Shown here piece after piece: positions 1 through 11,121 of a DNA stretch of 12,337 nucleotides (positions are counted from its first letter, which is position 1; each line of letters opens with the position of its first letter). This DNA comes from Flectobacillus sp. (lineage in GTDB: Bacteria; Bacteroidota; Bacteroidia; Cytophagales; Spirosomataceae). The DNA lies in NCBI GenBank assembly GCA_023255485.1, contig JALRIJ010000085.1, positions 1 to 12,337 on the forward strand, given 5' to 3'. Under the pieces are notes generated by a model that saw nothing but the letters and a program-made list of their open reading frames with translations, was not told where the DNA came from and searched no databases. Made by a program: the position numbers and the translations under genes.

Positions 1-625
1 AGAAGCATCTTCTGGTGGATATAAAGAGATTATCATGAACATTCAAGGAGAAGATGTTTATGGCAAAATGAAGTTTGAATCGGGTGTTCACCGTGTTCAG
101 CGTGTGCCAGCAACGGAATCTCAGGGTCGTATTCATACTTCTGCGGCAACGGTTGCGGTTTTGCCAGAGGTGGATGAAGTGGATGTTCAAATCAATATGA
201 ACGATATTCGTAAGGATACGTTCTGTTCATCTGGAGCGGGTGGACAGTCGGTAAACACGACGTACTCAGCCGTAAGGGTAACACACATCCCAACAGGCTT
301 GGTGGTTCAGTGTCAGGATGAACGTTCGCAAATTAAGAACTTTGACAAAGCCATGACCGTTTTGCGTTCTCGTTTGTATGAAATTGAACTTGCAAAACAA
401 CAAGCAGCGATTGCAGGTGATCGTAAATCAATGGTTGGATCGGGGGACCGTTCAGATAAAATCAGAACTTACAATTATCCGCAAGGGCGTGTAACCGACC
501 ACCGTATTGGTTATACGGTTTATAACCTTCCTGTGGTAATGGATGGCGAAATTGGTGATTTCATCGAACAACTACGTATCGCTGAAAATGCAGAAAAATT
601 GAAAGAAGGAAACAGTGCAATTTAA
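1..625 (+). CDS. prfA: Peptide chain release factor 1, 5'-truncated by the window edge. The frame is open from position 2 and stops with TAA at 623-625.
   Basis: The translation carries the RF1-specific tripeptide anticodon context [24 protein letters not shown] (PxT motif; RF2 would have SPF). It has the universal GGQ peptidyl-hydrolase motif ([11 protein letters not shown]) and the conserved C-terminal [24 protein letters not shown]. There is no in-frame stop between position 2 and the first ATG at 35, so the gene starts upstream of the window. Confidence 0.92.
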
Positions 626-654
626 GCATTGAAGTACCTTATTATCGTATAACA

Positions 655-692
655 AAAACGTCCTCGAAGATTATTTTCGAGGACGTTTTTGG
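655..692 (+). terminator. Rho-independent terminator of prfA
   Basis: Perfect 14-bp inverted repeat AAAACGTCCTCGAA / TTCGAGGACGTTTT around a 7-nt loop, followed by TTTTTGG. It lies 30 bp after the prfA stop. Confidence 0.7.
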
Positions 693-705
693 TTAATATT
701 CTCTC

Positions 706-781
706 CTATATTTTCTAGTATTTGATTCTTCACATTAATGACCTAATTGAGATATAGAATAATTCTATACTTCAACATGAT
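706..781. repeat. Copy A of a ~75-bp bipartite intergenic repeat. The left motif is CTATATTTTCTAGTATTTGATTCT and the right motif is AATTCTATACTTCAACAT.
   Basis: The 24-nt left end is identical to 1015-1038. The right-end motif AATTC(Y)(n)TACTTCAACAT is shared. The distance from TTTTCTAGTA to AATTC is exactly 50 bp in all three copies. The middle is diverged. Confidence 0.7.
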
Positions 782-792
782 ACCTGATAATT

Positions 793-850
793 TATATTTT
801 TTTCCTTTTAACAGGCGACTGAAGTCACCTGCTAAAAAGAAAAAATATAC
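793..850. repeat. Stem-loop element H1. The 14-bp outer stem (797-810 / 833-845) has one C·A mismatch, and the 22-nt core is ACAGGCGACTGAAGTCACCTGC.
   Basis: Inverted repeat TTTTTTTCCTTTTA / TAAAAAGAAAAAA. The core contains an inner stem GGCGAC/GTCACC closed by a TGAA tetraloop. The core is homologous to those at 943-966 (in reverse complement) and 9074-9095. Confidence 0.65.
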
Positions 851-923
851 TCGTTTTGAGTTCAACAATTAGTTTGTTGTCCAAATATCAACGATAGAAA
901 TTCAGTTACCATTTGGGGTATCC

Positions 924-985
924 TTGTTATTCTTTTCCATTTAGACGGCGACTTCAGTCGCTGGCGAAATGGAAAAGAATAACAA
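924..985. repeat. Stem-loop element H2. It has a perfect 19-bp outer stem (924-942 / 967-985) and a 24-nt core, AGACGGCGACTTCAGTCGCTGGCG, which is the reverse complement of the H1 core.
   Basis: TTGTTATTCTTTTCCATTT pairs perfectly with AAATGGAAAAGAATAACAA. The reverse complement of the core contains GCGACTGAAGTCGCC, an 11-nt identity to the H1 core at GCGACTGAAGTC. The flanks CCATTT...TAAATGG are identical to H3. Confidence 0.7.
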
Positions 986-1014
986 ATGATAAAATACTTG
1001 AGCTGAAGTACTCA

Positions 1015-1090
1015 CTATATTTTCTAGTATTTGATTCTCCAAGTTAATCTTCTGTTTGAAATAGAGAGAAATTCCATACTTCAACATAAT
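1015..1090. repeat. Copy B of the ~75-bp bipartite repeat, in direct orientation relative to copy A.
   Basis: CTATATTTTCTAGTATTTGATTCT is identical to 706-729, and ...AATTCCATACTTCAACATAAT matches the right end of copy A. It ends 14 bp before the stop codon of the minus-strand GH3 gene. Confidence 0.7.
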
Positions 1091-1103
1091 TTATAACTCT
1101 TCC

Positions 1104-2588
1104 CTACAACTTATCCGCAATCGCTCTATCATTAGATAAACGAGGTACTTTATTTTGTCCTCCCAATTTACCTTGCGACTTCATATAGTCAATAAATGCG
1201 TTCTTTTTCAGACTATTAATTTTCAACGGTTGAAGAATATTTCCCGTCATCAAATCGTCGTAATAGACATTCAGTTCAGCGAGTTTCGTATTTAAGTCGT
1301 GGGCAAAACTAGCTAAATTAGTGGGTTGTTGCGAAAATTCAATCAACCATTCATGATAAGGTAGTTCTCCATCTTCTGGTGTTACTTGTGGTGCAACGGT
1401 AAACTCAACGACTTCCGCCTCTGGGTGACGCTTAGTAGCATATTGCATGGCTTTTTCGACTTCTTCCCCAATCACGTGTTCTCCAAAAGCAGAGATAAAG
1501 TGCTTGATTCTGCCCGACACAATAATCCGATACGGACTTAACGAAACAAACTTTACCGTATCACCTAGTGAATAGCCCCACAAACCCGCATTGGTATTCA
1601 TAATGACAGCGTAGTTTACACCCAATTCTACTTCTCCAATGTGCAAACGACGGGGATTTTCTGAGAAATATTCATCCGCAGGAATAAATTCATAAAATAC
1701 ACCCGAATTTAAAAGCATTAACATTCCCTCTTCCGTTTGGGTATCTTGATACGCAATGAATCCTTCTGATGCAGGATAGGTTTCAATCGAGTCAATTTGC
1801 TTACCGATAGATTCAATCAATTTGGCACGATAAGGCGAAAAATTCACCCCACCATACACAAACAAGGAGAAGTTTTTAAACACGTCCTTAATTTTCTTAT
1901 CGGTACGATTTTGAATACGGTCGAAGTACATTTGTACCCACGGCGGAATTCCCGAAATCAACGACATATCTTCATTGATGGTTTCATCAATAATTTTATC
2001 CAGTTTACTTTCCCAATCTTCCATACAATTGGTTTCGTAACTTGGCATCTGATTCGAACGCAAATAACCTGGCACATGGTGATTGACAATTCCCGATAAA
2101 CGTCCTGTGAAAATGCCGTTCTTTTTATCCATTTCAGGCGAGCCAGAAAGGAATATTAATTTTTTGTCAAGAAATTGCGAATTACCCGTTTCGTGTACAT
2201 AACTTAATAACGCATCCCTTGCTCCATTGATATGGAAACCTATTGATTCTTTAGAAATCGGAATATATTTAACACCCGAAGTAGTCCCTGATGTTTTAGC
2301 AAAGTAGAGCGGTTTCCCTTTCCACAAAATATCAGGCTCTCCAGCCACAACCATTTCAATATAGGGCTTCAAAGACTCATAGTCTTTTACAGGAACGTTA
2401 TTTTTAAAAGACTGATAATCAATAATTTCATCAAAATGATGATCTTTTCCAAAAAGCGTGTGTGCTGCTTCCGAGACCAACGATTTCATAAGTAATAGTT
2501 GTGTTTCTACAGCATTTTTTTCCCATTTACGACGGGCATTTATAACGTAAGCGGCAAAAGGTTTTGCCAATAGTGAGCGGAATCCCAT
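1104..2588 (-). CDS. GH3 auxin-responsive-promoter family protein. This is an ANL-superfamily acyl-acid amido synthetase-like adenylating enzyme, a bacterial homologue of plant GH3/JAR1.
   Basis: The 494-aa ORF has a GH3-family N-terminus (LAKPFAAYVINARRKWEKNAVETQ). It has the adenylate-forming P-loop-like motif FAKTSGTTSGVKYIPISKES, the ...YGGVNFSPYR... segment and ASEGF, as in bacterial GH3 proteins. This length and domain order is a common annotation in Flavobacteriia/Cytophagia. Confidence 0.8.
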   Translation of the reverse strand: MGFRSLLAKPFAAYVINARRKWEKNAVETQLLLMKSLVSEAAHTLFGKDHHFDEIIDYQSFKNNVPVKDYESLKPYIEMVVAGEPDILWKGKPLYFAKTSGTTSGVKYIPISKESIGFHINGARDALLSYVHETGNSQFLDKKLIFLSGSPEMDKKNGIFTGRLSGIVNHHVPGYLRSNQMPSYETNCMEDWESKLDKIIDETINEDMSLISGIPPWVQMYFDRIQNRTDKKIKDVFKNFSLFVYGGVNFSPYRAKLIESIGKQIDSIETYPASEGFIAYQDTQTEEGMLMLLNSGVFYEFIPADEYFSENPRRLHIGEVELGVNYAVIMNTNAGLWGYSLGDTVKFVSLSPYRIIVSGRIKHFISAFGEHVIGEEVEKAMQYATKRHPEAEVVEFTVAPQVTPEDGELPYHEWLIEFSQQPTNLASFAHDLNTKLAELNVYYDDLMTGNILQPLKINSLKKNAFIDYMKSQGKLGGQNKVPRLSNDRAIADKL

Positions 2589-7148: not shown

Positions 7149-7193
7149 CATCCTTATTTAGTGCTTGACTAAATCCCCTTTCATTGCCACTAT

Positions 7194-7256
7194 AAACCGA
7201 TGAGGATTTGGGTGTAACACGTTCTATGGAAGAACAACCTAAATCCTTATCGGTTT
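7194..7256 (+). other. Long imperfect stem-loop in the ruvB 3' region. The stem is about 20 bp with three G·U wobbles that pair only on the + strand, around a 20-nt loop.
   Basis: AAACCGATGAGGATTTGGGTG (7194-7214) pairs with CAACCTAAATCCTTATCGGTTT (7235-7256). Every non-Watson-Crick position is G in the 5' arm opposite T in the 3' arm. That is G·U on the + transcript but C·A on the - transcript. No U-tract follows. Confidence 0.5.
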
Positions 7257-7271
7257 ACTAAAACACCTAGC

Positions 7272-7310
7272 TGCTACGATGTATCAATCCGCAAGTAGCA
7301 CTTCTTTATA
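7272..7310 (+). terminator. Possible intrinsic terminator for ruvB: a short hairpin followed by CTTCTTTAT. It overlaps the 3' end of the convergent small ORF.
   Basis: TGCTAC (7272-7277) pairs with GTAGCA (7295-7300) around a 17-nt loop, followed by a T-rich tract at 7301-7310. Confidence 0.3.
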
Positions 7311-7605
7311 AGTTAAAATCCTTCTCTGATAGCTCCATTGTTTTGGGCTTGTTAGATGCTCCCGTTACAAAAAAGTGACTTTGACAACTCATACAACGAT
7401 AATATTTTAGTCCTGAAAAATAGACCAAAAACAGACGCACCAAAATTGGTCTTCTCTTACGATCTCCATGGCCAGAGCCACATACAGGACATTTAGAAGA
7501 AGACGATTTTCTGGAAAAATAAAAGGCCAGCATGACAAGCTGAATCAGCAATAACCCTAGTATAATCTTCACAAAAAGACTATCTAATAATTGAGAAAAC
7601 ATCAT
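7306..7605 (-). CDS. Small hypothetical protein of 99 aa with an N-terminal transmembrane helix and a C-terminal CxxC-(31)-CxxC zinc-ribbon-like module.
   Basis: The ORF carries a hydrophobic segment IILGLLLIQLVMLAFYF, then CPVCGSGHGDRKRRP...YRCMSCQSHF. Amino-acid composition is protein-like, and the ORF is convergent with ruvB. There is no homology I can name. Confidence 0.5.
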   Translation of the reverse strand: MMFSQLLDSLFVKIILGLLLIQLVMLAFYFSRKSSSSKCPVCGSGHGDRKRRPILVRLFLVYFSGLKYYRCMSCQSHFFVTGASNKPKTMELSEKDFNL

Positions 7606-7742
7606 ACGTTTAGATTTTGTGTTATTAGTTTAAAATCATTATTACAAGTATGTTTACTAGTTTGTACGATGTCATACAACCCTAGTAATAAATTTAACAA
7701 AAAGTCCTATTATGGTAATTTTACTATCGAATAACCTGCAAG

Positions 7743-7817
7743 TGGTTTTCTAGTAAAATGATTGTGTCGTAACTATGTATAAAACTGCCCATATCAATTC
7801 CTACTGTCAAGGAACGC
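7743..7817. repeat. Degenerate third copy (C) of the ~75-bp bipartite repeat.
   Basis: TTTTCTAGTAaaaTGATT at 7746-7763 and AATTCCTACTgtCAA at 7796-7810 match the left and right motifs of copies A and B, with the same 50-bp spacing between them. A further partial left-motif TTTaCTAGTtTTTG lies at 7648-7661. Confidence 0.45.
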
Positions 7818-7964
7818 ATAACATTATAATACTAAGTTGTGTAGAGAATTAACAAGAAGATTCTTAAGCGAAGATTGAAGCCACCAAGGGCAAGTGATAG
7901 TTTTTTTATTTTGGTAGTTCAATTTACAGTTTTAAAACAAGATAAGAAAACTCCGACTTTACTA

Positions 7965-7996
7965 TTTGCTCCTAAAATGAGTGAACGGTATTTTTG
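7965..7996 (+). promoter_or_regulatory. Candidate sigma-A promoter for the membrane-protein gene: TTTG (7965-7968), then 20 bp, then TATTTTTG (7989-7996).
   Basis: Both halves of the Bacteroidota consensus (-33 TTTG / -7 TAnnTTTG) are present at canonical spacing. The implied TSS is near 8003, giving a ~235-nt leader before the ATG at 8238. Confidence 0.4.
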
Positions 7997-8072
7997 AAGG
8001 TATTTGAGATTTATAAACTAAAAAATAAGCTATTACAAGCTCTTTTTCTTTACTACTCCTAGAAGAATCTGC

Positions 8073-8129
8073 TTTGTCAAACATCCCAAATACCACTGAT
8101 ACTCCCTGTTTTTTGTCAAATCTCCCAAA
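8073..8129 (+). promoter_or_regulatory. Two tandem 18-nt direct repeats, TTTGTCAAAcaTCCCAAA (8073-8090) and TTTGTCAAAtcTCCCAAA (8112-8129), with starts 39 bp apart, in the leader/promoter region of the membrane-protein gene.
   Basis: 16 of 18 positions are identical. The repeats sit 109 bp upstream of the 8238 ATG and about 76 bp downstream of the -7 element at 7989-7996. The 39-bp phasing, close to four helical turns, is typical of direct-repeat operator sites. Confidence 0.4.
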
Positions 8130-8237
8130 AGGTTGTTCTATAGCCCTATTACTTGACTTAGCTCTTCTGACCTCCCTACCTTTGTCTCAGTCAACCAGTA
8201 AATACCTCCAACACAATTCAATATAACACTCAATATC

Positions 8238-8894: not shown

Positions 8895-9059
8895 CTATGG
8901 GGAGCTTCCTATTTTGACAATGGACTAACACCCATTGCTGAGACATATCGCCCTCACAGGGCTACCGAAGTCGTTTTACTTATAGTGAAATCCTAGGTAG
9001 CAACTAAGGATATTACCACAAAATTTGTCAGAGAATCAACTGTTTTTGTATAAAGAATA

Positions 9060-9109
9060 AACTATTCCATTTAACAGGTAAATGAATTCACCCGCTAAAT
9101 GGAATAGTT
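9060..9109. repeat. Stem-loop element H3. It has a perfect 14-bp outer stem (9060-9073 / 9096-9109) around a 22-nt core, ACAGGTAAATGAATTCACCCGC. A T-rich tract follows on the minus strand, so it may also terminate the flotillin gene.
   Basis: AACTATTCCATTTA pairs with TAAATGGAATAGTT. The core aligns with the H1 core: AACAGG...TGAA...CACCyGCTAA. The flanks CCATTT/AAATGG are identical to H2. On the minus strand the hairpin is followed by TTATTCTTTAT. Confidence 0.65.
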
Positions 9110-9213: not shown

Positions 9214-11121
9214 TTAATTTGCACTTACATTTTCTCCACCCTCCTCTTTATCAACTTGCTTTTTCTTGGTCATTTCTTCCATTAAACGCAAGCCTAACAG
9301 ACCGCTCAAAGCACCATTTTGGTCATTATTTCCTCCTGTAATTAAAATATCTGGAATGACCTTGATTCGTTCTCTACCGATACTTTCCGTGATTTTCAGC
9401 TGCGTAAAGTTGTCTCCACCCATCGCAGAAACGGCCAATTGATATGCTTCGGCATCAGCTTTACCAATGGCTAAGATTTTCTCCGCTTCGGCAGCACCCG
9501 TCTTACTGATTTTTTCAGCTTCGGCATTAGCAAGTAACTTTATTCGTTCCGATTCGGCACTGGCTTGTAATTTCACCCGTTCTGCCTCTGCTCCTGCTTG
9601 TAGCTTCAAGCTTTGAGCCTCCCCTTGTGCTTTTTTCACGGCTGCATCAGCAACTCTTTCAGCAATAACAACTCCTTGATCGGCTTTCACAATATCCTTC
9701 TGAATTTCGGCAATGGCGGTTTCTTTCTCTAAAGCCTGACGAGTTTCTTGTGCCATTTTTTGCGTATCATAAGTTACCTTTTGCTCTTCGGCTAACTTAC
9801 GGTCAGTTAAGGTTTTCATCAACGATTCTGGCGGAACAATATCCCCTATCAGCGTATCTACGGCATTGACATTATATTGAGAAAGCACTTCGCCAATGTA
9901 TTTCCGAGCCGTTTCCTGACGTTGGGTACGAGAACCCAAGAACGAAATTACATCAGAGCCTTGTGCCGAGTTACGGAAATAGTTACCAATCGTCGGCTCT
10001 AACACCTGACTCACCAAATTGTGCATATTCCCGAAACGAGCAATCACTTTGGGAGCTTCGTAATTAGGAATGTGGATAATCTGCGACACGTCCAAATTAA
10101 AAGGGAATCCATCTTTTGAACGCACCGTAATGGTCGAAAGGTTTTTATCTAATTGGTGCGATTCTGATCTTGCACTCGCCCAGTTGAGTACCAAGTTGGT
10201 CGTTGGCACTAATTCAATTTTTTGAACAAAGGTATTCACTGGATATTTCCCAGGGCCAAGCGGTTCTGTCCACACCCCTTTGTACCCTTTTGAAACAATA
10301 TTTCCATGTTTAAATTCTGTTCCACTGATGTCTTCACCATCTTCGCCCACATACGAAATCACGACCCCCACATACCCAATCGGAATTTCGGTCATGTGGA
10401 TTTCTTCTACCTTCACAAACCACGGGTTTAAGTTATAAGACCCTGCCAAGACGACCTGCTGTTGAAGCCCTTTATTCCCTCCGCCATTCAAAAAAGCATC
10501 TACGTCTTGAAAATTATTGTGCCCATCAATTGACTTACCCGAAATTTGTCCTGCCTCAATAGAAGCACCGTCCAAGGTCGTCACAATCCCAACCATATTT
10601 TCTTGAATTTCTGTTAAATCCGTCAACTGTACTTCAAACAATAAGGTATTTATTCGGTACGAACCAGCCGTTATAATAGCCGTTTGTCGCCCTTTTCTAC
10701 CCCCATTTTTCAAGAATGCTTCCGTATCTTGAAAGCTATCACATTCGATTTTACGGCCTAGAATACGACCTGTTTCCAACTCTTTTCCATCACGTGCCAA
10801 GACCAGCCCAATTTTACCCGTAGGAATCACCGTCAGAGGCTGTAAGGTAATGTCATACTGCCAAATCCAATACCAGAAATAAATCCCAGGAGATAGCGGT
10901 TTTGCCTGATAACCCGCTTCGCCTTCGGTGGCAAAAATACGCCCATCGGGTAGTTCTTTTTTATCGCCAAACAAGACAAACTTCTTCGTTACCAGCCCAA
11001 TACGGTCTTCTGGAACGATGATAATACCCAATAAACGAAAGATAAATTTGTAAAAAATTAGGCAAAACAAGGGAACTGCAATGCCAATGATGGAAGTAAT
11101 AGAAAGGCTCATTTTCAACAA
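9214..11121 (-). CDS. SPFH-domain / flotillin-family membrane protein (band 7, YqiK/FloT-like). It has an N-terminal membrane anchor, an internally duplicated beta-rich segment and a C-terminal Ala/Glu-rich coiled coil.
   Basis: The 635-aa ORF begins with the hydrophobic N-terminus SIIGIAVPLFCLIFYKFIF. The SPFH core follows. The C-terminal region carries flotillin-type EA repeats (AEAERVKLQASAESERIKLLANAEAEKISKTGAAEAEKILAIGKADAEAYQ). Residues ~120-165 (ECDSFQDTEAFLKNGGRKG...) are repeated at ~200-245 (GHNNFQDVDAFLNGGGNKG...). Confidence 0.85.
   Translation of the reverse strand: MLKMSLSITSIIGIAVPLFCLIFYKFIFRLLGIIIVPEDRIGLVTKKFVLFGDKKELPDGRIFATEGEAGYQAKPLSPGIYFWYWIWQYDITLQPLTVIPTGKIGLVLARDGKELETGRILGRKIECDSFQDTEAFLKNGGRKGRQTAIITAGSYRINTLLFEVQLTDLTEIQENMVGIVTTLDGASIEAGQISGKSIDGHNNFQDVDAFLNGGGNKGLQQQVVLAGSYNLNPWFVKVEEIHMTEIPIGYVGVVISYVGEDGEDISGTEFKHGNIVSKGYKGVWTEPLGPGKYPVNTFVQKIELVPTTNLVLNWASARSESHQLDKNLSTITVRSKDGFPFNLDVSQIIHIPNYEAPKVIARFGNMHNLVSQVLEPTIGNYFRNSAQGSDVISFLGSRTQRQETARKYIGEVLSQYNVNAVDTLIGDIVPPESLMKTLTDRKLAEEQKVTYDTQKMAQETRQALEKETAIAEIQKDIVKADQGVVIAERVADAAVKKAQGEAQSLKLQAGAEAERVKLQASAESERIKLLANAEAEKISKTGAAEAEKILAIGKADAEAYQLAVSAMGGDNFTQLKITESIGRERIKVIPDILITGGNNDQNGALSGLLGLRLMEEMTKKKQVDKEEGGENVSAN

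What the first reader, a model, noticed from the sequence alone, without database searches (positions are those of the whole stretch)
626..1103. Highly organised convergent spacer between prfA and the GH3 gene: terminator, DR-A, H1, spacer, H2 (inverted), DR-B
The 478-bp spacer between the prfA and GH3 stop codons is not random AT-rich DNA. It contains a canonical terminator at 655-692. A 76-bp element (706-781) is repeated directly at 1015-1090, with a 24-nt identical left end and a shared right end, 309 bp apart. Between the two copies, the two hairpin elements H1 and H2 sit in mutually inverted orientation. The octamer CTGAAGTC or its complement occurs three times in 230 bp (818-829, 949-960, 1002-1010). 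This layout is direct repeats bracketing an inverted pair of structured elements. It resembles a miniature composite insertion or a recombination site, not a simple terminator region. There is no ORF inside; the longest is 6 codons.
Basis: seen in the sequence. Interest (0 to 1): 0.6.

Follow-up and report, generated by a model that had tools for sequence, protein, structure and literature searches.

The report
Strain-variable spacer with palindromic repeat pair
The organised DNA between the prfA and GH3 genes is real: a pair of hairpin-forming repeats from a small dispersed family, bracketed by a duplicated local sequence, at a spot that other strains fill with one repeat copy or a toxin-antitoxin module.

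Summary
The spacer has a bidirectional terminator (653-691), a 76-nt direct repeat (706-781 and 1015-1090, 82% identical, really about 91 nt), and two related palindromes H1 and H2 in opposite orientation.

Two details are wrong. CTGAAGTC occurs exactly only twice. ORFs of 41-48 codons do exist, but indels break their frames in other strains.

Conspecific contigs (uncultured Spirosomataceae, GH3 96-99.6% identical) carry four alleles at this site:
- one solo repeat copy without the block (the predicted "empty site");
- this composite block (the commonest);
- an orphan higA antitoxin gene;
- a complete higBA module.

All alleles share 10 nt that match the last codons of higA. The composite therefore probably replaced a toxin-antitoxin cassette.

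H1 and H2 belong to a dispersed hairpin family. A third copy lies at 9060-9109. Further inverted pairs and singletons lie at three other loci, and a diverged copy occurs in Flectobacillus. Stems are kept by compensatory changes, and one strand folds better.

The direct repeat was not found clearly elsewhere. No transposase, integrase, promoter or Rfam match was found.

Best reading: a REP/BIME/REPIN-like palindrome dimer with duplicated flank, in a recombination-prone inversion junction. This is a new member of a known kind, of modest interest.

The parts
35..625 (+). 3' part of prfA (peptide chain release factor 1); stop codon at 623-625
   Evidence: Pfam PCRF and RF-1 domains. The full-length copy in L001 matches the NCBIfam prfA equivalogs above their cut-offs.
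653..691 (.). Canonical intrinsic terminator: an 18-bp stem with an A run before it and a T run after it, so it can act in both directions. Present in all four alleles.
   Evidence: (I4). Conserved in L002, L003, L007, L008, L096 and L097.
693..702 (-). TTAATATTCT, the last 10 nt shared by all alleles before they diverge. Its reverse complement is the final codons (E, Y, stop) of the higA gene that occupies this place in alleles C and D. It is read as a relic of higA.
   Evidence: Alignments. The higA family ends in EY with Y118 invariant. That it is a relic is an inference.
706..796 (+). DR-A, the left copy of the direct repeat (76-nt core 706-781, extended to about 796)
   Evidence: Of the 14 differences from DR-B, 12 fall in the middle 34 nt and 2 in the 42 end nt.
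798..845 (+). H1, a palindromic repeat of the hairpin family, with the family pattern on the + strand
   Evidence: 71 bits with model R1.
846..923 (.). Spacer between the two hairpins. CTCGTTTT (850-857) next to H1 is also present next to the H1-like copies in L091 and L093. The rest is conserved only among alleles of this locus and partly in L093.
924..985 (-). H2, a palindromic repeat of the same family, inverted relative to H1 (family pattern on the - strand). The longest stem: 27 of 30 positions paired.
   Evidence: The compensatory series A-T, G.T, G-C across strains is seen.
986..1014 (.). Linker ATGATAAAATACTTGAGCTGAAGTACTCA. It travels with H2-type hairpins and is conserved beside the H2-like copies in L091 and L094.
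1015..1100 (+). DR-B, the right copy of the direct repeat, ending 3 nt before the GH3 stop codon. In this window it lacks 10 nt that other strains keep. The solo copy in L007 is of this type.
1104..2588 (-). GH3-family gene (adenylate-forming enzyme family; OlsH-like match below cut-off), convergent with prfA
9060..9109 (+). H3, the third member of the hairpin family, between the convergent DUF2306 and Band_7 genes. A diverged hairpin sits at the orthologous position in two Flectobacillus genomes.

Best explanation
WHAT IT IS
The spacer is the commonest of at least four alleles of a non-coding filler. It sits at a lineage-specific inversion junction between prfA and the GH3-family gene in an uncultured Spirosomataceae species.

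After the shared bidirectional terminator and a 10-nt relic of a higA antitoxin gene, this allele holds an inverted dimer of a lineage-specific palindromic repeat: H1, a 78-nt spacer, H2 and a conserved linker. The layout is that of a REP dimer, also called BIME or REPIN. The dimer lies between two old, diverged copies of a 76-91-nt local sequence.

HOW IT LIKELY AROSE
The dimer was most likely added to a solo-DR allele by a duplicative event that copied adjacent flanking DNA with it. Such events are described for REP clusters. A cut-and-paste transposon with a short target duplication, or an integrase, is less likely.

The inferred series is: higBA, then higA alone, then solo DR, then the composite.

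HOW IT LIKELY WORKS
The block encodes nothing. The hairpins are kept as single-strand stem-loops, with one strand favoured. Any effect on the host is probably limited to structuring or insulating the 3' ends of the convergent transcripts.

SHOWN VERSUS INFERRED
- Shown: the anatomy, the allele series, the dispersed family, the covariation, and the strand bias in folding.
- Inferred: the order of events, the way the block was copied in, and any role in RNA.
For: ALLELES AT THIS SITE
- A: L007 has the terminator, a solo DR and no block.
- B: the window, L001, L003/L010, L004, L005, L006, L092 and L097-L101 carry the composite.
- C: L002, L008 and L009 carry a 118-aa higA-like gene.
- D: L096 carries higB (PF09907) plus higA.

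POLARITY
- All alleles share TTAATATTCT. This is the reverse complement of the E-Y-stop codons at the end of higA, and Y118 is invariant in the higA family.
- Alleles A and C share the GH3-side flank CCTAAACTTTATAAC. Allele B has CCTGATAATTTATAAC there, identical to the end of DR-A.

HAIRPIN FAMILY
- One 40-nt pattern fits H1 (+), H2 (-) and H3 (+).
- The metagenome scan found L091 (an inverted pair 26 nt apart, with the same linker), L093 (a pair with a partly conserved spacer) and L094 (linker plus hairpin).
- Model R1 also finds Flectobacillus copies at the position orthologous to H3.

STRUCTURE IS SELECTED
- 86.8% of cells are paired, against 34-48% when partners are slid. 10 of 22 pairs change on both sides.
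- One H2 stem pair runs A-T, G.T, G-C across strains.
- There are 17 G.U pairs on one strand against 3 on the other, and every copy folds better in the same orientation.

NON-CODING
- Frames are broken by indels in other strains.
- There is no Rfam match at E up to 1, apart from a meaningless one at E = 0.97.
- There is no Bacteroidetes -7 box, and sigma-70-like sites are no more frequent than in shuffles.

INVERSION JUNCTION
- Flectobacillus has GH3, then the 206-aa gene on the opposite strand, then prfA on the same strand as GH3.
- This species has GH3, then prfA on the opposite strand, then the 213-aa orthologue (56% identity) on the same strand as GH3.

LITERATURE
- REP-associated transposase subclasses with atypical hairpins occur in Bacteroidetes (PMC6006769).
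Against: - The copy number of the hairpin family in a whole genome is unknown. Only about 8 hairpins at 5 loci were seen, and whether L091, L093 and L094 come from the same species is not verified (same metagenome, similar G+C).
- The hairpins are longer (48-62 nt) than classical REPs and carry no GTAG or CGTC end tag.
- No REP-associated transposase was seen, but the genome could not be searched for one.
- A 76-91-nt flank duplication with 18% divergence is not explained by any demonstrated mechanism.
- The clustering of DR differences in the middle (Fisher p = 0.0008, segments chosen after seeing the data) hints at constraint or gene conversion at the DR ends. The model does not predict this.
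- A weak DR-B-like stretch follows the linker in L091 (empirical p about 0.005). The DR could therefore belong to the repeat unit instead of being local flank.
- The polarity rests on 10 shared nucleotides and on flank sharing in a recombining population.
Confidence: 0.55

Rival explanations
1. The composite allele is ancestral to the solo-DR allele. L007 arose by recombination or replication slippage between DR-A and DR-B within their nearly identical first 24 nt, deleting one 309-bp unit. On this reading nothing was inserted into a solo site. The nature of the hairpin dimer stays the same.
For: - A crossover in the shared 24 nt would leave exactly one DR of the B type next to the native left flank, as seen in L007.
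- The composite is the commonest allele and is found across the most diverged strains (GH3 96-99.6%).
- The two DRs are 18% apart, so the composite is old.
Against: - The solo DR in L007 differs from the window's DR-B at 5 of 73 aligned positions.
- L007 carries the GH3-side flank CCTAAACTTTATAAC, which it shares with the higA allele and not with any composite allele.
- It is therefore not a simple deletion product of any sampled composite. However, later recombination in the flank could explain this.
Confidence: 0.2
2. The 309-bp unit is a miniature non-autonomous integrative element. DR-A and DR-B are attL and attR, formed by site-specific recombination between a chromosomal site (the solo DR) and a similar site on a small circular element. 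An integrase encoded elsewhere in the genome would drive it.
For: - Direct repeats bracket the block, and an allele with a single repeat exists.
- There is an identical 24-nt core at the repeat start.
- The ends of the DR are much better conserved than its middle.
- A tyrosine integrase lies about 7 kb away in one strain (L008).
Against: - That integrase is in a strain with the higA allele and belongs to a separate island.
- No clear DR copy was found elsewhere.
- Hairpins of the family occur without a DR (H3 and L094).
- DR-A resembles DR-B over the whole 91 nt including both ends. That is not expected of a hybrid att site with a short core.
- The 18% divergence shows no recent activity.
Confidence: 0.1
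3. The block is a functional structured RNA element. It would be either a 3' UTR module that stabilises or insulates the convergent prfA and GH3 transcripts, or a small RNA gene. The repeats would reflect selection on RNA structure, not mobility.
For: - Compensatory changes keep the stems.
- Mismatches are G.U-compatible on one strand in every copy.
- The hairpin at the H3 position is retained downstream of the DUF2306 gene across genera.
- All copies lie outside genes, most next to gene 3' ends.
Against: - There is no promoter-like motif of either type and no Rfam family.
- The better-folding strand has no consistent relation to the direction of the nearest gene: three of the four cases examined give the weaker orientation in the sense transcript.
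- The stems have a U-rich 5' arm and an A-rich 3' arm, the reverse of a terminator.
- Strains do without the block (alleles A, C and D).
- G.T pairs would favour a DNA hairpin on the same strand equally well.
Confidence: 0.1

Closest known systems
REP dimers / BIMEs / REPINs (repetitive extragenic palindromes, proposed to be mobilised by REP-associated tyrosine transposases)
   Same: - Extragenic imperfect palindromes with a family consensus.
- Found as singletons and as inverted dimers 20-100 bp apart with partly conserved spacers.
- Often at gene 3' ends and between convergent genes.
- Present or absent between strains.
- Clusters can include duplicated flanking DNA (PMC3733652; PMC6006769).
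   Different: - The stems are longer (48-62 nt, against 20-40).
- The arms are AT-rich around a short GC core.
- There is no GTAG or CGTC end tag.
- Only a handful of copies were seen.
- No associated transposase was identified.
- The flanking duplication is unusually long and old.
MITEs (miniature inverted-repeat transposable elements)
   Same: A small non-coding unit of 115-190 bp with inverted ends (H1 and H2 are 78% complementary, I1). It is multi-copy, intergenic, and variable between strains.
   Different: - No short target-site duplication directly flanks the hairpin pair.
- Each "terminal repeat" is itself a palindrome that folds on its own.
- The conserved sequence extends beyond H2 into the linker.
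- No parent insertion sequence is known.
att-flanked cis-mobilisable or integrative elements (direct repeats as attL and attR)
   Same: Imperfect direct repeats bracket the block, and an allele with a single repeat exists.
   Different: - The unit is only 309 bp and has no genes.
- No integrase is linked to the composite allele.
- The repeat similarity spans 91 nt instead of a short core.
- No second site was found.
Chromosomal hot spots occupied alternatively by type II toxin-antitoxin modules (here higBA)
   Same: Other strains carry higB-higA, or higA alone, at exactly this position, sharing the left boundary to the nucleotide.
   Different: The window's allele holds no toxin-antitoxin gene, only a 10-nt trace of higA. 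The filler here is non-coding repeat DNA unrelated in sequence to the cassette.

Membership tests
REP / BIME / REPIN | Located outside protein-coding genes | tested here: met
   H1, H2 and H3 and the copies in L091, L093, L094 and L022 all lie between ORFs.
REP / BIME / REPIN | Imperfect palindrome able to form a stem-loop, with the stem kept across copies | tested here: met
   86.8% of cells are paired, 10 of 22 pairs change on both sides, and slid controls give 34-48%. The spacer fold has z = -9.4 and -10.9.
REP / BIME / REPIN | Many dispersed copies per genome sharing a consensus | tested here: inconclusive
   About 8 hairpins at 5 loci share a 40-nt pattern. No whole genome could be scanned, and the one metagenome scan used a strict pattern.
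REP / BIME / REPIN | Inverted dimers with a short spacer | tested here: met
   Window: H1 and H2, 78 nt apart. L091: 26 nt apart. L093: a pair cut off by the contig end.
REP / BIME / REPIN | Conserved GTAG or CGTC tetranucleotide at one end of the unit | tested here: not met
   No GTAG or CGTC lies at the ends of H1, H2 or H3. CGTC occurs only inside the stem of H2-type copies (alignment). The feature is as defined in PMC3733652.
REP / BIME / REPIN | Length of 20-40 nt | tested here: not met
   The hairpins span 48-62 nt.
REP / BIME / REPIN | A cognate REP-associated tyrosine transposase gene in the same genome, flanked by the repeats | not testable with these tools
No such gene appears in the gene tables of the held same-species loci. 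Bacteroidetes subclasses do exist (PMC6006769).
MITE | Short target-site duplication directly flanking terminal inverted repeats | tested here: not met
   The flanks of the H1-H2 pair (ATAATTTATA on the left, ATGATAAAAT on the right) are not direct repeats, and the right flank is conserved among copies, so it is part of the unit.
Integrative element with att repeats | Occupied site with two direct repeats, and an empty site with one | tested here: met
   Window compared with L007.
Integrative element with att repeats | A recombinase linked to the element, or further copies of the att sequence | tested here: not met
   There is no recombinase in allele-B contigs. No clear DR copy was found in 1.5 Mb of loci, and the one 20-nt match in viral contigs looks like chance. 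Only a weak DR-B-like stretch was found in L091 (p about 0.005).
Intrinsic (factor-independent) terminator | G+C-rich stem-loop followed directly by a T run | tested here: met
   Met by 653-691 only. H1, H2 and H3 do not meet it, because their stems are followed by A-rich sequence on both strands.
Known RNA families (Rfam 15) | Match at or near a family's gathering score | tested here: not met
   The only hit in the spacer is Phe_leader at 25.8 bits against a gathering score of 55, E = 0.97.

The most novel reading that the evidence does not exclude
The hairpin dimer is the working unit of an undescribed REPIN-like mobile system in Cytophagales. It would be a long AT-armed palindrome with a conserved GCGACTNAAGTCGC apex, recognised as single-stranded DNA on one strand by a Bacteroidetes-type Y1 transposase. 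It would spread by a copy mechanism that drags 80-90 nt of flank with it, and here it displaced a higBA addiction module.
Probability: 0.15. Interest if true: 0.5.

Novelty: new member of a known kind. Interest (0 to 1): 0.3.

Why it matters
The finding shows that an intergenic region which looks "designed" can be one allele of a small recombination hot spot. In a single species, the same few hundred bases are filled by a toxin-antitoxin module, by its orphan antitoxin, by one repeat copy, or by a palindromic repeat dimer.

It also documents a palindromic repeat family in Spirosomataceae that no search run here (Rfam, phage and plasmid collections, three literature searches) matched to anything already described. 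The family shows clear compensatory evolution and a strand bias in folding.

If a cognate transposase were found, this would extend REPIN-type systems to a poorly studied lineage and give a dated example of how such repeats enter a site.

As it stands, it is a well-characterised example of a known phenomenon, not a new kind of system.

Tried and rejected
SEARCHES THAT FOUND NOTHING USEFUL
- An exact look-up of the window's GH3 protein found nothing. Close homologues had to be used instead.
- A protein-word search with the 48-aa ORF that reads through DR-B, the linker and half of H2 was meant to catch paralogous DR copies called as spurious genes. It found no candidate.
- A viral-contig scan for the DR core gave one hit. 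Similarity does not extend beyond the seed, so it is taken as chance. The viral scan for the hairpin pattern gave none.
- BLASTN of 693-1103 against plasmids and phages gave no match.
- Rfam gave nothing credible.

IDEAS TESTED AND REJECTED
- DR as a promoter: there is no TAnnTTTG box on either strand, and sigma-70-like sites are at chance level.
- DR or block as a decayed higBA cassette: no nucleotide or translated similarity.
- DR homologous to the 110-nt filler of the higA-only allele: scores fall below the null mean.
- DR as a coding remnant: the DR-encoded peptides are interrupted by stop codons in the window's DR-A and in L007, and 14 nucleotide changes give 8 amino-acid changes, which is not distinguishable from random (own reading).
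- H1 and H2 as terminators: A-rich sequence, not T-rich, follows the stems on both strands.
- L007 as an assembly collapse of the two DRs: unlikely. The identical stretch (24 nt) is shorter than the k-mer I believe the Logan assembler uses (31, from memory). L007's DR also has its own substitutions and a flank shared with the higA allele.
- The long-range pairing of TTGAAGTA (629-636) with TACTTCAA (1077-1084) seen in the fold: an 8-mer match at about the chance expectation.
Full report
THE OBSERVATION

The window has a + strand ORF ending at 625 and a - strand ORF ending at 1104. The first is peptide chain release factor 1. Pfam finds PCRF and RF-1 domains, and the full-length copy in L001 passes both NCBIfam prfA equivalogs. 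The second is a GH3-family protein. The 478-bp spacer contains:
- One canonical terminator at 653-691: an 18-bp stem with an A run before it and a T run after it.
- A 76-nt direct repeat at 706-781 and 1015-1090. It is 82% identical, with the first 24 nt identical and a spacing of 309. No shuffle reproduces the 24-mer.
- Two long imperfect palindromes, H1 (798-845) and H2 (924-985).

Both strands of the spacer fold far better than shuffles.

Two details are wrong. CTGAAGTC occurs exactly only twice, and the third site is CTGAAGTA. ORFs of 41-48 codons do overlap the spacer, but indels in other strains break their frames.

ORGANISM AND NEIGHBOURHOOD

GH3 homologues at 96-100% identity come from uncultured Spirosomataceae (labelled "Flectobacillus sp." in one record). 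The next relatives, Arcicella and Flectobacillus, are at 81-86%.

Among 80 loci from species-representative genomes, prfA lies next to GH3 in the convergent arrangement only in this species. Flectobacillus rivi has GH3, then a 206-aa gene on the opposite strand, then prfA on the same strand as GH3. Here the order is GH3, then prfA on the opposite strand, then the 213-aa orthologue (56% identity) on the same strand as GH3. The spacer is therefore one junction of a two-gene inversion.

FOUR ALLELES IN ONE SPECIES

I recovered this spacer from 17 further contigs of conspecific strains.

- Allele B (the window's layout) is in L001, L003/L010, L004, L005, L006, L092 and L097-L101. These are 93-99.6% identical to the window across the spacer, with ordinary substitutions and small indels.
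- Allele A (L007, GH3 98.8%) has a 178-bp spacer: the same terminator, one DR copy of the DR-B type, and no hairpin block.
- Allele C (L002, L008, L009) replaces everything after GGTTAATATTCT with 460 bp that encode a 118-aa protein. The protein belongs to a large Bacteroidota HigA antitoxin family.
- Allele D (L096, GCA_029865665.1) has the complete pair: higB (PF09907) followed by higA.

Allele B's content has no similarity to the higBA cassette or to the filler of allele C.

POLARITY

All alleles are identical up to TTAATATTCT (693-702). On the other strand this is GAA TAT TAA, the last codons of higA. The family ends in EY, with the tyrosine invariant. Alleles A and B therefore most simply carry a 10-nt relic of higA.

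Alleles A and C also share the GH3-side flank CCTAAACTTTATAAC. In allele B that flank reads CCTGATAATTTATAAC, like the end of DR-A.

The most economical series is higBA, then higA, then solo DR, then the composite. This is an inference in a population whose flanking SNPs are not congruent with the alleles, which is a sign of recombination. The reverse step, from composite to solo by a crossover in the 24-nt identity, cannot be excluded.

THE DIRECT REPEAT

Other strains keep 10 nt in DR-B that the window lacks, so the repeat is about 91 nt.

The two copies differ at 14 of 76 positions. Twelve of these differences fall in the middle 34 nt and two in the 42 end positions (Fisher p = 0.0008; the segments were chosen after seeing the data). 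The spacer itself differs by only 0.4-7% between allele-B strains. The duplication is therefore much older than the strains.

I found no clear DR copy elsewhere:
- BLASTN of the DR against the 89 loci then held (about 1.5 Mb) matched only this same spacer.
- The viral-contig scan gave one match that looks like chance.
- The protein-word trick found nothing.

The only hint is a DR-B-like stretch directly after the linker of the paralogous element in L091 (empirical p about 0.005).

THE HAIRPINS ARE A DISPERSED FAMILY

The 12-kb window has only four long hairpins: the terminator, H1, H2 and H3. H3 lies at 9060-9109, between the convergent DUF2306 and Band_7 genes.

Two are these same loci at about 97% identity. 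Three are new:
- L091 has an H1-like and an inverted H2-like hairpin 26 nt apart, followed by the same linker (ATGATAAAAT.CTT). The pair lies between two genes on the same strand.
- L093 has an H2-like hairpin, a partly conserved spacer and an H1-like hairpin, next to a gene's stop codon.
- L094 has the linker plus an H2-like hairpin at a contig end.

A covariance model of ten copies also finds diverged hairpins in two Flectobacillus genomes. They lie downstream of the DUF2306 orthologue, the position orthologous to H3. They share the GCGACTNAAGTCGC apex but have different stems.

Stem pairing is maintained:
- 86.8% of cells are paired, against 34-48% in slid controls, and 10 of 22 pairs change on both sides.
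- One H2 pair runs A-T, G.T, G-C across strains.
- Mismatches are strand-biased. One orientation has 17 G.U pairs and the other has 3, and every copy folds better in that same orientation.

This fits a single-stranded form, but it does not tell RNA from DNA. The favoured strand has no consistent relation to the nearest gene's direction.

WHAT IT IS NOT

- It matches no Rfam family.
- It has no Bacteroidetes-type or sigma-70-type promoter signal above chance.
- It resembles no plasmid or phage sequence.
- H1, H2 and H3 are not terminators, because A-rich sequence follows their stems on both strands.
- No transposase or integrase gene appears in the gene tables of the allele-B contigs.
- The integrase in L008 belongs to a separate island in a strain with allele C.

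COMPARISON WITH KNOWN SYSTEMS

The closest match is the REP, BIME or REPIN class. These are extragenic palindromes with a consensus. They occur as singletons and as inverted dimers 20-100 bp apart, with partly conserved spacers. [quoted passage not shown] REP-associated transposase subclasses with atypical hairpins are reported in Bacteroidetes (PMC6006769).

Membership is not established:
- There is no GTAG or CGTC tag.
- The units are 48-62 nt, not 20-40.
- The copy number is unknown.
- The cognate transposase could not be sought.

A MITE reading fails on the target-site duplication. An att-site reading has the occupied-and-empty pair in its favour, but it lacks a recombinase and a second site.

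VERDICT

The block is best seen as an old REP-dimer-like filler with a duplicated flank, in a small recombination hot spot that once held a higBA module. It is not an active miniature transposon or a dedicated recombination site. It is a new member of a known kind, of modest interest.

Noticed in passing
window 9060-9109; L022 3241-3288; L023 3124-3171: The hairpin H3 lies downstream of the DUF2306 gene. A diverged palindrome with the same GCGACTNAAGTCGC apex but different stems sits at the orthologous position in two Flectobacillus genomes. A member of the family has therefore been kept at one gene end across genera.
   Followed up: partly
L096 4540-5202; L002 11612-11968; L008 11612-11968: Other strains of the same species carry a higB-higA toxin-antitoxin pair, or higA alone, at exactly the place of the repeat block. 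The orphan higA is full length (118 aa, as in most of the family).
   Followed up: yes
L003 (=L010) 11964-13042: In the MAG GCA_049241065.1, prfA is called as two ORFs (90 and 269 aa). This is a frameshift in an essential gene and is most likely an assembly or sequencing error.
   Followed up: no
window 7149-8237; L002 1982-4327; L003 2587-4334; L008 1989-4334: Between the RuvB and DUF2306 genes, some strains have a 781-aa CarboxypepD_reg/Plug (TonB-dependent receptor-like) gene. It is split into smaller ORFs in L003. The window, L001 and L007 lack it and have only short ORFs there. This is a second presence/absence polymorphism.
   Followed up: no
L001 14232-14487; L007 12763-16523; L003 14281-15193: The other end of the inverted prfA / 213-aa segment is also variable. 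Strains carry a glycoside hydrolase / beta-lactamase-domain gene (L001, L002, L008), a restriction-modification-like N6_Mtase/Eco57I gene with an HTH / S24 peptidase gene (L007), or an HNH gene (L003).
   Followed up: no
window 9214-11121 versus L003 1-1224 and L008 1-1003: The Band_7 gene next to H3 is replaced in some strains by an MFS / spermine-synthase fusion gene. In those strains a different palindrome (AAACTCTATCAAATCGTTTATAG...) stands downstream of DUF2306 instead of H3.
   Followed up: no
L094 585-650 and 1141-1200: A different repeat of about 65 nt (CACCGTACCATTGTGCGAAAG..AAT.CT.AGAAGTCAATTCCTATCAA.T.TGGTCGGGAGA) occurs twice in this 1.3-kb contig, once just before the H2-like hairpin. 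It may be another dispersed intergenic repeat of the same organism.
   Followed up: no
window 8918-8963: A weak match to the Rfam family Acido-Lenti-1 (24.6 bits against a gathering score of 37, E = 0.041) lies just after the DUF2306 stop codon. It is probably only a terminator-like pair of small hairpins.
   Followed up: no
L004 and L005 contig ends; start of L093: Several short-read contigs break in the centre of an H2-type hairpin. This shows how these palindromes fragment assemblies, and it may lead to their copy number being underestimated in metagenomes.
   Followed up: no
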